A DNA stretch of 64,000 bases. Source: Octopus vulgaris (taxonomy: Eukaryota). Made by a program: the position numbers. The stretch lies in NCBI GenBank assembly GCA_951406725.2, contig OX597832.1, forward strand, positions 44,392,001-44,456,000, written 5' to 3'. Below, piece by piece: positions 7,360 to 64,000 of the stretch (positions are counted from its first letter, which is position 1; every line of letters begins with the position of its first letter).

Positions 7360-9573
7360 TAGCAGTATCGCCCGGCGTTGCTCGGGTTTGTAAGGGAAAT
7401 AACTATAAAGGATTTTTTAGAGAGTTATAGCCAAAAAATAGCAAAAAAATGGGAACAAAAAGATGGTAAATTTTTTTTTTGATAGTTAAAAAGGTCGAGT
7501 TGCGTCCCCATGACCATCTGTGGTTTGTATTTCTGATTGTCGACCCCATGTTGAATTTATCGATCTTTTTCAGAACTGGGGGAACTTTTCAAAATTTTCG
7601 CTGCGTTAGTTTTGAATTATGACATTGGGCTATGTGTGTGTCAAGTTTCATCAGAATCGGTTGAAAGCCGTGGTCAGGGTGAGGGTACAAGCAAACAGAC
7701 ACACAGAAACACACACAGACAAACTGCCGTTTATATATAGAGATATATATATATATATATATGTGTGTGTGTATATGTTTGTGTGTTTGTGTTTGTCCCC
7801 CTAGCATTGCTTGACAACCGATGCTGGTGTGTTTACGTCTCCGTCACTTAGTGGTTCAGCAAAAGAGACCGATAGAATAAGTACTGGGCTTACAAAAAAG
7901 AATAAGTCCCGGGGGTCGATTTGCTCGACTAAAGGCGGTGCTCCAGCATGGCCGCAGTCAAATGACTGAAACAAGTAAAAGAGTAAAAGAGTAGAAAAGA
8001 GTAAAGAGATATATAAAAACACAGACTTCTTATGTTTCCTTTCAACTAAAATACTTTAGTTCGTTAAGACTATAAATAAATTATTACAACGAAATGTTTC
8101 TTGCCATAAATTAGTCTTGGTACTTCATTTCTTTTTGTCAGCATTGTTGTCATAATGTCTGTTTATCATTTTCATCATCATCGTTGTCATCGTCATCATC
8201 ACCAACAGTATCACCAGCAGCAGCAGCAGCAGCAGAAGCAGCAGTAACAGCCACTGCCTCTCCTATTTTTATGTAGAAACAGTTTGTCCATTCGGTCATT
8301 TTGTATTTTTTCACATTGGCTTTAAAAGTAGCTCTTAGTCAAGTTCTAAAAGGTTGTTTTTTTCTTCCAGAAATAGATAGCAGCAACAAACAGCTGTTTT
8401 CGTATATAATTTTGATTGCTGCTTTCTGGTTTTAATTAAAAGAAGATCATATTTAGTTTTATTTCATATAATTAGCAATACCAAGACTAAATTATCTTCC
8501 ATTTACATGGTTATCATTCTAACAGTTTTAACAGCGATCCAGACATGGCAGAAGTAATCAGTTGTCTTATTTTCTTGATTGCCTTATCTTGTGTCTCACA
8601 ACAAACAGCCTCAGGTATATACACTTCCGTCTTTTTATATTTCTTTCTCTCTTACAACGGATAACAAAAACACAATTTGATATTTAAATTTCCTACTGCA
8701 ATTTCTTTTACTCCGCATCATTCAACTCCTACCTTCATCTGCTCTCTCTTTCTTTTATCTCAAGGTGTGTCAGTTGGGGCTATCAGATTTCTCACCTGAA
8801 TGCCAAAAAATTCAATGTCTCGCAAGAAAGAGTATATTGCCTTTATATTTCTTGTGAAATGCTGCTTCCTGTAATTTTCAGGTGTCGCATTAAATATAAA
8901 GACACACTTGAAAATGTACACATATGGCATTGTGTGTATATATGTATCTACGTGTGTGTGTGTGTGTGTGTGTGTGTATTGGGTCATCCCATAAATAATG
9001 CATTTTTTTAATACTTCTTTTATTTTTCAAAATTAAGATAAACAAAGTCCTTTTTTTAATTCAAAATATACTTTCCTTCATTTTCTACAATGCTCTTCCA
9101 TCTATCTGGTAGACTTGCAAGGCCCCGCTTCCAAAATTCACTTTGTCCATGATGAAAAATACGCCTCCATTACTGTTCTGGCCCCATCTACAGAATTCAT
9201 ACTTTCTCAATTCAAAGGACTTTGAAGACTGTGGAATAAATGATAATCAGATGGAGCAATGCTTGATGAATATGGTAGGTGGGGCATCGTTTCCCATTCA
9301 AACTGCTTCCAGCCTTTGGAATATCATCCTTGCTGTATGTGGCCGAATATTATCCTGATGGAAGAACTCTTTGCCTCTTGAAACCAGAGATGGTCATTCT
9401 CTAATGGCATGCAGGTGTCAACGAATGGTTGAATTACCAAATCCAAGCTTCTCTGCTAGTTCCTCAACAGTTACGATGGGATTTGACGGGTAGTCATGAT
9501 GGGTATACTGGGCTTTGTATATTTTATCCCAGTGTCACTTTGATGGCATGCACTGCTCTCTCACTCAATAATA

Positions 9574-9614
<41 letters not shown>

Positions 9615-61000: not shown

Positions 61001-64000
61001 CTGAGAGCAGCACCCTTCATTACCTTTCCTGTAAATAAACCAGTTGTAAATAGCATTTATAATTGAAGCCTTTTCACTTCACCTGCTGGAAGCCTGAACT
61101 ACATAAAGAACAAAAAGATGATGGAAGGAGATGATATTCCTCCGATATCATAAACCTTGCCTTCCATTATTAAAACAATGTCTAACAGGACATGAACACA
61201 TTTAGCATTCTCACCAACCACTGCTAGGACAATCTTCATATGCCTGATATAAATTGTGTTTTTAAACAAGCATGTCCATATCAGATATTATTTCTGCATG
61301 AATACTACAGAAAGTTTGCCTTTTGTGATGTATTTACTTTACATATAATATCCAGATGGATATGTATATATATTTAAGTATGCTGTGCATGAGAAGACCT
61401 GGCAGGACAAGTGAGACCATAAGCCGTGACCTCTACATGGGATGTAGCCAGTCCACTTATGCATATCTTTCCTTCTAGGGACACAAAACTCTGCTTGCGA
61501 AGACCTGTTGAGGCAAGTGAAATTGAAAATCGAAATCGATGAACATCAATGGAAATTGCAGCTGTGATACCAGTGCCGGTGGTATGTAAGAGAACCATCT
61601 GAACGTGGCCGTTGGCAGCGCCGCCCCGACTGCGCTCGTAAAAAGCACCCACTACACTCACAGAGTGGTTGGCATTAGGAAGGGCTTCTTAACTATACAG
61701 CAACACCTGTACCCTAGAAAATTTGACTGCTCCTGGGTGGGCTTGTACCATTTATTTTTTAGTCTGTTGCCAGCCCCACCTGGCCCTCGTGCTGGTGGCC
61801 GTTTGCCAGTCCTGTCTGACACCTGTGCCGGTGGCACGTAAAAAGCACCCACTACACTCACGGAGTGGTTGGCGTTAGGAAGGGCATCCAGCCGTAGAAA
61901 TACTGCCAGATCAGACTGGGCCTGATGCAGCCTTCTGGCTTTCCAGACCCCAGTTGAACCGTCCAACCCATGCTAGCACGGAAAGCGGACGCTAAACGAA
62001 GATGATGATGATGATGATGATGATGATTTGTTTGCATCTTGCTTAATATTTTCAAATATTTTTTAAAAATGGAAATGTTGGTTTGTAAATATTAAATGAA
62101 GCCCCATCACTGGAATTTCAGTAACAGCAACAAAAATAGAAAAGTATATGGGAATTTCTTCACTGATTCTTGTTCTACTTACAGATAGAACATTCTAGAA
62201 TAGACGGTATATATTCTCTTTGCTACCTTGAGAATATATATGTATATGGTACATTGGCTGTTAACTTTCCAAAAGTTTTGTAATGCCGCAATTATTGAAA
62301 CAATGTAATTAGTTTATCAAGATCCAAGACATAATTACGAAGGGTGAACACGGGCGCTCAAAAATTTCGAATGTCTAAATTTAAAACAAGGAATATAAAA
62401 GCCAGATGCAATCAACACATACATAATAATGGAATATTTACTGAGATACTTTATAAATATGAAACATACAAATATTGATTTCACTTTATTCAACGAGAAA
62501 ATAACGTTTACAGGCAACAGTAGATATATTGTTAAAATAGTAAACTTGCAAAGAAAGGATACTTTAAAAAGTGTCAAATTTTTCTGTCAATGTATAGCAT
62601 ATACAAATTCATAATATTGATTTGGATTAATGTGGTATTATAATATATCATTGAATAGATATGACCTTGGTTCTACACGATTACAATTATAATGTCCTAA
62701 GTCATTTTACTAAAAAAACGATTCTAAATAAATTTGTTCAGTTACATTCTCCACATAATACAATGTAGTATTCCATAAGAGGGAAATCTTTGACAGGGCA
62801 ATATTATCTTATGTTGTAGGATTTGTTACTTTACCAATGAAATGGATAATTTTAGTTCGGTTGTCAACAATTAAAAATGTGAATGGGTGATTGACATCAA
62901 AATCCATACAATTTAGAAAATAATCATCACACATCAAGCACCCAATATCAGTTGCAGCTGCAGCTTCCGTCCCTTCTTCATTAACATCAACAAATGCTTT
63001 ATGAAACATTTCACTGGCATAAATATTATTCTCACCACCAGTCATTCCAGATAAATCAGCTTTTAGAGGATCAAAAATATCAGGGAGTCCAAGGTTTTTC
63101 AAAACTTCAACCAACTGAAAACTACTCTCTAAACGAAATTTTGGCATATGTAATAGTAGACTCATCATTTTAAATCCTTTTCTGTCAACAATGTCTTTGA
63201 GAAATTGAGCATTAATCTCCTTCTCTAAAGCAGCAAGACCATTGATTTCATTGGGAAGAATTACAAACATACTAAATGCTTTTCCTATATAGGGTAACTC
63301 AACGACTTTATAGTTGTCGCTTATTTTGGTATTAAAATCTTCAGATGTATACATAAAATCATGAAATACAGTCTTGTCAGAACGTAAATAAAACTTTGTA
63401 GATTCTGTTGCATGTTCTGAGAATATTTTAGCCCACATTCCTTTAAAGTATACAGCATTAATAAGAACTAGAATTGATTGAGGTGTCAACCTTCCACTTT
63501 GTAACAGATCAGTAATTTTGTTATTTGTGTTATTCTTAACCCAATCATTAATAGTTATTCTTGTCTTCTCAGCATTTGTTATGAAGTCTACATTTTCAAT
63601 ATCTGAAAAGAAATATTTTACCATGTTGTTCTTGTAGTCTTCAGAAATAGGGAATATTTCACTGGCATACAAACGATTCACTGAATTGAATGTGACAAGT
63701 TTATCTGAGTTTTTCAAAAGTGAAAAATATTCTTTAAAAGCCAAAGCTACAGAATCTGGATTTGATGTTATCTTCAAAACATTTTCAATCTGTTTGGCAG
63801 AGTTTTGTCTTGCTCCCAAATAAACCATTGATAAAACAGTAGCAACACTGAATGGTGACATGAAGACATTTTCATTGGTTCCTGTAGCCACAGCTTGGTA
63901 AAGACTGTTTGTAAAATAATCAATTGAAGCAGCAAGGTTACCGATGTCTTGTTTCTCTGCTGAGTCCATATTGTATACGATAGTGTCTGGAGAATATAGA

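What the first reader, a model, noticed from the sequence alone, without database searches (positions are those of the whole stretch)
8545..63986. One leader, many cassettes: serpin exons with a conserved in-frame acceptor but no leader exon of their own
Seen: the only signal-peptide exon I could find is 8545-8614 (+), ending in phase 1. All six - strand cassettes (exon starts 20664, 33328, 44207, 47168, 52555, 63986) keep a conserved polypyrimidine tract and AG. The acceptor lies 17 nt before the MDS codon (8 nt in copy 1, 14 nt before the hinge in the mini-cassette), always 2 mod 3, so phase-1 compatibility survives indels. Each cassette has a homologous 3' flank, with AATAAA signals. By eye I found no leader copy in the spacers. 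Inference: a single leader beyond 64 kb could splice to alternative whole-serpin terminal exons, a mirror image of clustered protocadherins. This differs from Manduca serpin-1 and Drosophila Spn42Da, where only the RCL exon alternates.
Basis: partly seen in the sequence, partly recalled or inferred. Interest (0 to 1): 0.9.

Follow-up and report, generated by a model that had tools for sequence, protein, structure and literature searches.

The report
Tandem octopus serpin cassettes lacking leaders
This stretch of Octopus vulgaris DNA holds a young tandem array of complete one-exon protease-inhibitor (serpin) genes with very different reactive loops; only one has its own signal-peptide exon, and whether the others share a distant one or simply start at their own ATG is still open.

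Summary
The window is Octopus vulgaris. Exon 8545-8614 (+) is a phase-1 signal-peptide exon. Joined to 10725-11887, it equals an annotated 410-aa protein. All six - strand acceptors lie exactly where stated, and no second leader exists on either strand.

Corrections:
- Only four - cassettes are intact; 47168 is broken and 44207 is an in-frame deletion remnant.
- A degenerate + strand copy at 47697-48810 was missed.
- Acceptor conservation is mostly explained by recent duplication of 12.7-kb units that differ by 1.4-2.9%.

The reactive-centre loops are hypervariable, so the copies look functional.

The shared-leader idea is only partly supported. An O. sinensis protein joins a different leader to an array-type cassette whose loop is identical to 47168/44207. 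That leader is absent from the window.

Against it, every cassette keeps its own ATG with A at -3 and G at +4. Of 17 octopod relatives, 10 start at that Met.

My best reading is leaderless products from each cassette's own ATG (about 0.5). A shared upstream leader gets about 0.3. No transcript data could be consulted.

The parts
8545..8614 (+). Signal-peptide (leader) exon of the + strand serpin gene. It is 70 nt long and ends in phase 1 at CAG|GTATAT.
   Evidence: sequence; 23 of 23 residues match P0001. P0001 is the annotated O. vulgaris protein. Its signal-peptide character (hydrophobic core VISCLIFLIALSCV, small residues T-A-S before the junction) was judged by eye, not by a predictor.
8615..10724 (+). 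Intron of the + strand gene. It contains a SINE-like repeat at about 10164-10583. Ancestral intron sequence shared with the - copies is limited to 10053-10160 and 10568-10724.
   Evidence: repeat family; homology resumes past the insertion and ends at about -255.
10725..11887 (+). Cassette c1, a complete serpin in one exon (acceptor AG at 10723-10724, ATG at 10733, stop ending at 11887). AATAAA lies at 12204-12209 and 12249-12254.
   Evidence: PF00079, E 2.8e-109; 100% identity to P0001. AATAAA signals.
19487..20664 (-). Intact cassette (386 aa from ATG 20647). Reactive loop ATNFKVLMCNKFFINRMDF.
32148..33328 (-). Intact cassette (387 aa from ATG 33311). Reactive loop ATGMVVILQSLEIFINRMDF.
44032..44207 (-). 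Mini-cassette: acceptor, linker, then directly hinge, reactive loop and C-terminus. It is an in-frame internal deletion of about 1 kb. In phase 1 it reads TTIYEGTEAAAASGMVVSNYMSRIGMQFDVNHPFTFLVVDDRTKMIHFIGKVTNPTI*.
   Evidence: 53 of 53 residues identical to the C-terminus of O. sinensis P0002.
45998..47168 (-). Broken cassette: in-frame TGA (FKGM*AEKF) and a frameshift near PKFH. Its loop is the same as in the mini-cassette and in P0002.
   Evidence: frame open for only 202 codons; 185 aa from the ATG at 47151..
47623..48810 (+). Degenerate + strand serpin pseudogene (ATG at 47697, several stops and frameshifts, no loop region), head-to-head with the 47168 copy. It keeps a TTTAG acceptor-like site with a 16-nt linker.
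51375..52555 (-). Intact cassette (387 aa from ATG 52538). Reactive loop ASAMERRKVLGRFVINCMDF. It is the most diverged of the - copies.
62809..63986 (-). Intact cassette (386 aa from ATG 63969). Reactive loop ATDIGCLMCDDYFLNCMDF. Only 14 nt upstream of its acceptor are inside the window.
   Evidence: present in the database as the 386-aa leaderless protein P0004.
18049..30711 (.). One full 12.66-kb tandem unit (cassette plus spacer). It is repeated at 30711 to about 39640 and at 57692-64000 with 96-97% identity, and as a partial unit at 12834-18049.

Best explanation
This is part of an Octopus vulgaris chromosome carrying a recently amplified array of serpin genes. In each gene the whole inhibitor (helix A to C-terminus, about 386 aa) lies in one exon.

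Shown:
- The + strand gene has two coding exons: signal peptide, then serpin.
- The other copies descend from such a gene by copying only about 2 kb (about 255 nt of intron, the exon and about 580 nt of 3' flank). Later, 12.7-kb units were duplicated in tandem.
- That history is why they all carry the same 3' splice site, the same linker frame and the same AATAAA signals.
- The bodies are kept alike and are partly mosaic, which points to gene conversion.
- The 20 codons after the hinge differ almost completely between copies. This is the usual signature of inhibitors kept for different target proteases.

Inferred:
- Each intact - strand cassette is expressed mainly as a leaderless serpin translated from its own ATG. 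That ATG has A at -3 and G at +4 and is conserved across the octopod relatives examined.
- The mRNA's 5' exon, probably non-coding, would be spliced to the conserved acceptor.
- The 'acceptor followed closely by an in-frame ATG' design lets the family make either a secreted form (leader exon spliced in, as in the + strand gene) or a cytosolic form (no coding leader).
- A secreted form of the - strand cassettes would need a leader lying outside the window. I think that is possible but the less likely main route.
For: Identity:
- the top hit is 100% identical, from O. vulgaris.
- 5 of 5 intact copies match PF00079 over the full length (E 1e-106 to 1e-109).
- the hinge EEGTEAAAA is intact in 5 of 5.

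Duplication history:
- Searches give the limits of the shared segment. The units are 96-97% identical.
- flank divergence is 1.4-2.9% among young units and 10.9-24% against c1.

Loop diversification:
- 12-29 differences in the 60-column window after the hinge. Elsewhere in the exon the youngest pair (20664/33328) shows 0-4 per window, and other pairs show up to 9.
- loop dN is 0.30-1.20 against body dN of 0.014-0.058. Body dN/dS is 0.54-0.95.

Own start codon:
- A at -3 and G at +4 in 6 of 6 copies with an ATG.
- of 17 octopod relatives, 10 begin at this Met. The 7 with an N-terminal extension all keep the Met at the same place.
- four unnamed, more distant relatives (P0018-P0021, on contigs of 1.4-318 kb, three of them under 2 kb) have no signal-like N-terminus.
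- the paralogue pair P0016 (leader) and P0014/P0017 (start at Met), together with P0015 (a different, non-hydrophobic 5' extension), shows alternative 5' ends on one cassette type.
- the 63986 copy is held in the database as a 386-aa protein starting at MDS.

No private leader.
Against: - O. sinensis P0002 shows that at least one array-type cassette does receive a coding leader. That leader type is absent from 45 kb of array here, which fits a shared distant leader.
- The linker keeps the leader's frame through a 9-nt indel and a 1-kb deletion.
- Leaderless database models may be annotation defaults rather than observed transcripts.
- I found no promoter or first exon for any - cassette and have no tool to find one.
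- Body dN/dS of 0.54-0.95 shows only weak constraint, so some copies may be decaying.
- No expression data for any copy were available.
Confidence: 0.5

Rival explanations
1. One signal-peptide exon upstream of the array (beyond base 64000, - strand) is spliced in phase 1 to alternative whole-serpin terminal exons, each with its own poly(A) site. One promoter would then yield a panel of secreted inhibitors with different reactive loops.
For: - No leader of either type lies in three complete spacers.
- The copied segment excludes the leader.
- Acceptor, linker frame and AATAAA are kept in all copies.
- O. sinensis P0002 joins a MARII-type leader to a cassette whose loop equals 47168/44207. That cassette type lies here downstream of two intact cassettes with no leader in between.
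- P0002 is named 'isoform X3' and its 90% cluster has 13 members.
- In O. bimaculoides two clusters under 90% identical (P0003, P0008) share an identical first 54 residues, including the leader.
Against: - No transcript evidence was available.
- Only 3 clusters in the protein database carry the MARII leader (3 hits of 4 candidates), and none is visibly from O. vulgaris.
- O. sinensis models P0005-P0007, from the same chromosome-sized contig, are separate 'like' genes starting at MDS.
- The conserved ATG with A at -3 and G at +4 is unexplained by this model alone.
- Transcription would have to pass several AATAAA-bearing cassettes over more than 45 kb.
- Gene order in O. sinensis is unknown to me.
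- The identical N-termini of P0003 and P0008 are expected anyway, because the N-terminal halves of all cassettes are nearly identical.
Confidence: 0.3
2. Most - strand copies are silent by-products of very recent segmental duplication (incipient pseudogenes). The splice site, frame and poly(A) signals are simply not yet decayed.
For: - Units differ by only 1.4-2.9%.
- Body dN/dS is 0.54-0.95.
- 3 of the 8 serpin-derived pieces are already broken or truncated: 47168, 44207 and the + strand copy at 47697.
- Acceptor-proximal conservation is barely above the neighbouring intron.
Against: - Loops differ at 12-29 of 60 columns, while flanks of the young units differ by 2-3%. That is hard to obtain without selection for different loops or retention of old loop modules.
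- The hinge and C-terminal strands are intact in 4 of 4 full-length - copies.
- The coding body is less diverged than the 3' flank against c1: about 5% versus 11-12%.
Confidence: 0.12
3. Each unit has its own coding leader, unrelated in sequence to the two known leader types and hidden in the spacer.
For: The generic scan gave four non-microsatellite - strand candidates: 36074-36194, 39775-39868, 45147-45267 and 49289-49373. The last lies 2.1 kb upstream of the 47168 acceptor, the same distance as in the + strand gene.
Against: - None of the four recurs at the homologous place in the other 96-97% identical units.
- Their donor sites score 3-4 of 6.
- The + strand gives a similar number of non-microsatellite false candidates (about 8 places beside the true leader, 6 if homologous repeat copies are counted once).
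Confidence: 0.05
4. The + strand leader 8545-8614 serves the - strand cassettes by trans-splicing, as in Drosophila mod(mdg4) (recalled, not checked here).
For: Only that it is the sole leader in the window and has the right phase.
Against: - There is no evidence of any kind for this.
- The sister species uses a different leader type for the array-type cassette.
Confidence: 0.01

Closest known systems
Drosophila Spn42Da (Spn4) and Manduca serpin-1: serpin genes with mutually exclusive reactive-loop exons. For Spn42Da I saw only the abstract of PMC4006314 in the listing: four alternative loop exons, eight isoforms, different proteases and cellular locations. Manduca serpin-1 is recalled.
   Same: - One locus offers several reactive loops behind a common design.
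- For Spn42Da, the isoforms also differ in cellular location, as I propose for the leader and leaderless forms here.
   Different: - There the serpin body is shared and only the loop exon alternates.
- Here every intact copy carries the whole serpin in one exon, so nothing of the inhibitor is shared.
- The single loop-only unit (44207) is a deletion remnant.
Loci with common 5' exons and alternative 3' terminal cassettes: Drosophila PGRP-LC (abstract of PMC6191721 seen in the listing), lola and mod(mdg4) (both recalled).
   Same: If the shared-leader reading is right: one 5' exon, several downstream cassettes each with its own acceptor and 3' end, and each cassette encoding a complete recognition domain.
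   Different: - Sharing is not shown here.
- The common part would be only a signal peptide.
- No docking or selector pairing could be tested. The one attempt timed out.
Tandem clusters of serpin paralogues with hypervariable reactive loops, such as rodent Serpina3, Serpina1 and clade-B expansions (recalled). The parasitoid PpSerpin-1 combines duplication and alternative splicing (abstract of PMC10513286 seen in the listing).
   Same: Recent tandem duplication, homogenised bodies and sharply diverged loops.
   Different: Those are ordinary independent genes. Here each copy is a single coding exon preceded by a retained splice acceptor and lacks the leader exon of the founder gene.
Clustered protocadherins (recalled).
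   Same: A row of similar large exons in one orientation.
   Different: - The polarity is opposite.
- There is no constant exon set in the window.
- There is no evidence of one promoter per cassette or of stochastic choice.

Membership tests
Serpin superfamily (Pfam PF00079) | Full-length match to the serpin domain model above the curated cut-off. | tested here: met
   5 of 5 intact copies score 357-366 bits (cut-off 27) over profile positions 4-370 of 370; the closest solved chains are serpin B3/B4, antithrombin, PAI-2 and ovalbumin (E 1e-70 to 1e-62).
Inhibitory serpins | Hinge with small residues before the reactive loop. The consensus EEGTEAAAAT is recalled, not taken from a call. | tested here: met
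   alignment: EEGTEAAAA(S/T) in 5 of 5 intact copies. It is also present in 47168 and the mini-cassette.
Multi-loop-exon serpin genes (Manduca serpin-1 / Spn42Da type) | Constant body exons spliced to one of several loop-only exons. | tested here: not met
   body, hinge, loop and C-terminus are one uninterrupted frame in each intact copy. The only loop-only piece (44032-44207) starts with the leader-type acceptor and linker, not with a body-compatible junction.
Common-5'-exon / alternative-terminal-cassette loci (PGRP-LC, lola type) | Each cassette has its own 3' splice site and its own polyadenylation signal. | tested here: met
   (acceptors). (AATAAA in 5 of 5 intact copies).
Common-5'-exon / alternative-terminal-cassette loci (PGRP-LC, lola type) | Transcripts that join one and the same 5' exon to two or more cassettes. 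| not testable with these tools
   No transcript collection for octopus was available. The cluster listing for the O. sinensis isoforms was switched off. The presumed leader would lie outside the window.
Common-5'-exon / alternative-terminal-cassette loci (PGRP-LC, lola type) | No private first coding exon between cassettes. | tested here: met
   Searches found no homologue of either leader type and no recurrent signal-like phase-1 exon. Non-coding first exons could not be excluded.
Clustered protocadherin-type loci | Variable first exons, each with its own promoter, spliced to shared downstream constant exons. | tested here: not met
   The cassettes start with an acceptor and end with a stop codon and AATAAA. 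They are therefore last exons, not first exons.
Intracellular ovalbumin-type (clade B) serpins | No cleavable N-terminal signal peptide. | tested here: inconclusive
   c1 has a leader. The - copies have none in the window. Database names ('leukocyte elastase inhibitor', 'serpin B3') are automatic best-hit names. The C-terminus ...VTNPTT keeps Asn-Pro, which as I recall is not the ov-serpin pattern.

The most novel reading that the evidence does not exclude
A single signal-peptide exon upstream of the array is spliced to any of several complete serpin exons. Each serpin exon would have its own poly(A) site and its own reactive loop, so one promoter secretes a switchable panel of inhibitors. The same cassettes could also be translated from their internal ATG as cytosolic forms. 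This would be alternative splicing of whole inhibitor genes rather than of loop exons. It would have arisen simply by tandem duplication of a terminal exon inside a two-exon gene.
Probability: 0.3. Interest if true: 0.75.

Novelty: new member of a known kind. Interest (0 to 1): 0.45.

Why it matters
As it stands, this is a clean example of a young serpin array in a cephalopod. The bodies are homogenised and the reactive loops are kept apart, which is ordinary for serpin clusters. It is useful for annotating octopus immunity or saliva inhibitors.

The array also shows how a two-exon gene (leader plus everything else) can spawn leaderless copies by duplicating only its last exon. If the copies turn out to share one distant leader, this would be a route by which gene duplication turns directly into alternative splicing of whole domains. 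That would be a serpin counterpart of PGRP-LC or lola, and a caution for genome annotation, which now lists such copies as separate leaderless genes.

Tried and rejected
1. The listing of cluster members, to see the 13 members of the P0002 cluster and the isoforms X1/X2, was switched off. The question stays open.
I did not repeat it.
3. I tried the published O. vulgaris 'Serpin B10' qPCR primers (passage of PMC5736919 seen). The forward primer matches four hinges only with 3 mismatches, and the reverse primer has 0 matches. That transcript is another paralogue and says nothing about these copies.
4. Pfam on six spacer ORFs gave 0 of 6 with a family. ARAGORN found 0 tRNA genes.
5. Literature:
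   - 'octopus + serpin + signal peptide' gave 15 papers.
   - 'serpin + cephalopod + salivary gland' gave 14.
   - 'leukocyte elastase inhibitor + octopus' gave 5.
   - 'serpin' with the alternative last/terminal exon phrases gave 611 papers with at least 2 terms, of which 10 were listed.
   - In the listings, no title or abstract start deals with octopus serpin gene structure or with whole-serpin alternative terminal exons. I read only listings, apart from passages of PMC5736919. Supplements are closed and were not seen.
6. Clean orthology between O. sinensis proteins and individual window cassettes failed. All pairs are 84-94% identical, except the loop and C-terminus of P0002.
7. The cassette ORF was searched alone and the leader alone. 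P0001, which equals the joined model, came from the database.
The sequence beyond base 64000 stayed unchecked.

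
Full report
WHAT THE WINDOW IS

The best database match of the + strand serpin ORF (10733-11884) is a 410-aa 'Hypothetical predicted protein [Octopus vulgaris]' at 100% identity (P0001). The next matches are from O. sinensis and O. bimaculoides at 85-91%. 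P0001 begins MAEVISCLIFLIALSCVSQQTAS-DTTMDS. Its first 23 residues are encoded by 8545-8613 (23 of 23), and the rest by the exon that starts at 10725 after CCAG.

I did not build or search a joined model myself. The cassette was searched alone and the leader alone.

CHECKING THE OBSERVATION

All six - strand coordinates are the first base after a pyrimidine-rich tract ending in CAG or TAG. Linker lengths are:
- 17 nt in the five long - copies
- 8 nt in c1
- 14 nt to the hinge in the mini-cassette

All of these are 2 mod 3. AATAAA lies 317-365 nt after the stop in 5 of 5 intact copies.

There is no second leader.
- blastn of the 70-nt exon found itself, plus 17 hits of 10-25 nt with E >= 0.12. 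With 300-nt flanks it found only itself.
- The leaders of O. sinensis P0002 and O. bimaculoides P0003 hit only 8545-8613 (E 0.004 and 1.7e-4).
- A generic scan (ATG, 15-40 codons, hydrophobic core, phase-1 GT) recovered the true leader on the + strand.
- On the - strand that scan gave 17 hits. They were microsatellite artefacts plus four single places (36074-36194, 39775-39868, 45147-45267, 49289-49373). None recurs in the homologous units.

CORRECTIONS TO THE INVENTORY

- Four - copies are intact: 386, 387, 387 and 386 aa.
- The 47168 copy has an in-frame TGA and a frameshift.
- The 44207 'mini-cassette' is an in-frame deletion that joins the linker directly to the hinge.
- An eighth serpin-derived piece was missed. 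It is a degenerate + strand pseudogene (ATG 47697, to about 48810, with several stops and frameshifts), head-to-head with 47168.

HOW THE ARRAY AROSE

Self-comparison shows 12.66-kb tandem units (18049-30711, 30711 onward, 57692-64000, and a partial unit at 12834-18049) at 96-97% identity. Non-coding flanks of the cassettes in these units differ by only 1.4-2.9%. Conservation of the acceptor among 20664, 33328 and 63986 therefore carries no information.

The informative comparison is with c1.
- Homology runs from about 580 nt past the stop to 147 nt before the acceptor.
- It is interrupted there by a SINE-like insertion in c1 (10164-10583).
- It resumes for about 110 nt (10160-10053 against 20802-20909) and then ends.

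So the founder duplication copied the terminal exon with about 255 nt of intron, but not the leader or promoter.

Against c1, the 40 nt before the AG differ at 6-7 of 40 positions, versus 16-24 of 76-94 further upstream. Against the old + strand pseudogene the figures are 8 of 40 versus 35 of 86-97. The splice-site region is a little better kept than its surroundings, but not strikingly.

ARE THE COPIES FUNCTIONAL?

- All five intact copies give full-length PF00079 matches and keep the hinge EEGTEAAAA(S/T).
- In 60-column windows, the window after the hinge holds 12-29 differences. The youngest pair (20664/33328) has 0-4 per window elsewhere in the exon, and other pairs have up to 9.
- Loop dN is 0.30-1.20 against body dN of 0.014-0.058. 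Loop dS is also high in most pairs. This points to old loop modules kept apart while the bodies are homogenised.
- The 63986 copy carries a c1-like block (columns 480-660). That fits gene conversion.
- Body dN/dS is 0.54-0.95, which is weak constraint.
- The body is less diverged from c1 (about 5%) than the 3' flank is (10.9-11.9%).

I conclude that the intact copies are most likely working inhibitors with different specificities. Loop hypervariability is a known serpin pattern (recalled).

LEADER OR NO LEADER?

For a distant shared leader:
- O. sinensis P0002 ('leukocyte elastase inhibitor isoform X3', 413 aa) joins a second leader type, MARIIPGFPFWVLLFCMSQQTVS, to DTTIYD-MDS....
- Its last 53 residues are 100% identical to the mini-cassette. 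Its last 107 residues are 94% identical to the 3' half of 47168.
- So an array-type cassette is leader-spliced in the sister species.
- Here that cassette type lies downstream of two intact cassettes, with no such leader in the 17 kb up to base 64000.
- O. bimaculoides P0003 and P0008 (under 90% identical to each other) share an identical first 54 residues.

Against:
- A search with residues 1-40 of P0002 found only these three clusters (3 hits of 4 candidates).
- O. sinensis P0005-P0007, on the same chromosome-sized contig, are modelled as separate genes starting at MDS.
- The window's own 63986 copy is held in the database as a 386-aa protein starting at MDS (P0004).
- The ATG has A at -3 and G at +4 in 6 of 6 copies.
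- Of 17 octopod relatives, 10 start at this Met, and the 7 with an extension all retain it.
- In the MKSSN paralogue, one cassette type appears with a signal leader (P0016), with a non-hydrophobic extension (P0015) and with none (P0014, P0017).
- More distant unnamed relatives, three of the four on contigs under 2 kb, lack a leader (P0018-P0021).

A Met kept at a position that would be an unstructured internal residue in a secreted form is best explained by its use as a start codon.

VERDICT ON MECHANISM

The family's design is an acceptor followed within 8-17 nt by an in-frame ATG. This allows a leader-spliced secreted form and a leaderless form.

For the - strand array I rate the readings as follows:
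- Leaderless translation from the cassette's own ATG as the main output: about 0.5
- One shared upstream leader: about 0.3
- Largely silent young copies: about 0.12
- Hidden private leaders: about 0.05
- Trans-splicing from the + strand leader: about 0.01

The listing of the P0002 cluster, which might have shown isoforms X1 and X2, could not be obtained. Nothing beyond base 64000 could be read, and no octopus transcript collection is among the tools.

COMPARISON WITH KNOWN SYSTEMS

- This is not a Manduca serpin-1 or Spn42Da type gene, because body and loop are one exon in every intact copy.
- It has the cassette-side features of common-5'-exon / alternative-terminal-exon loci such as PGRP-LC: its own acceptor and its own poly(A) signal. 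The defining feature, shared-exon transcripts, is untested.
- It is not protocadherin-like in the strict sense, because the cassettes are last exons.
- It fully matches the known kind 'tandem serpin cluster with hypervariable reactive loops'.

None of the four literature searches (listings only) showed a paper on octopus serpin gene structure or on whole-serpin alternative terminal exons. The search gave the Spn42Da, PGRP-LC and PpSerpin-1 abstracts used for comparison.

SCORES

The best-supported reading is a new member of a known kind. Interest is 0.45, because a cheap experiment (junction reads or 5' RACE) would decide a reading that would be notable if true.

Noticed in passing
window 44032-44207 (-): The mini-cassette is an in-frame deletion of about 1 kb with GA microhomology at the junction. 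It leaves acceptor, linker DTTIY, hinge, loop and C-terminus. Its 53 C-terminal residues are 100% identical to O. sinensis P0002, although the full-length copy next to it (47168) is broken. If spliced to a leader it would encode a secreted peptide of about 58 aa.
   Followed up: partly
window 47623-48810 (+) and 45998-47168 (-): This is a head-to-head inverted pair of serpin copies whose acceptors lie about 500 nt apart.
   Followed up: yes
window 62809-63986 (-), alignment columns 480-660: The 63986 copy differs from 20664 and 33328 in a block where c1 differs from 33328 in the same windows. This suggests a gene-conversion mosaic between the + strand gene and the array.
   Followed up: partly
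window 4090-4538, 4880-5279, 10164-10583, 14204-14655, 27106-27560, 42073-42479, 44656-45039, 57738-58197: A repeat family of about 400-450 bp (81-92% identical, both orientations), probably a SINE. One copy sits in the intron of the + strand serpin gene. ARAGORN found no tRNA-like part.
   Followed up: partly
window 15042-15551, 27844-28422, 58485-59093 (+): Repeated ORFs ([23 protein letters not shown]...RRRGDLI...) inside the tandem units look like the tail of a retroposon ORF. There was no Pfam match.
   Followed up: partly
window 37467-37928 and 54429-54959 (-): A repeated ORF of 153-176 aa (MKWAEDCRMHAQQEFVKQDSS...) lies in the spacers on the same strand as the cassettes. It has no Pfam match, and its nature is unknown.
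   Followed up: partly
window 1-1700: A long imperfect TG/CA-type microsatellite region (GC skew 0.61). It produces long spurious open frames on both strands and most false hits in the leader scan.
   Followed up: no
window 25584-26187 and 56360-56907: Purine-rich low-complexity tracts (poly-Lys/Glu or poly-Ser/Leu frames) lie at the same place in two tandem units.
   Followed up: no
window 49289-49373 (-): This is a signal-like ORF (MISLSHLVVIALIATSIHLWETNIMLVP) ending in a phase-1 GTGAAT. It lies 2.1 kb upstream of the 47168 acceptor, the same distance as leader to cassette in the + strand gene. It is unrelated in sequence to both known leaders and is probably chance.
   Followed up: partly
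database protein P0009 (O. sinensis 'serpin B3-like isoform X2', 342 aa): This annotated isoform of an array-type cassette ends inside the reactive loop (...EGTEAAAATGI). It hints at a splice donor within the loop region in the sister species.
   Followed up: no
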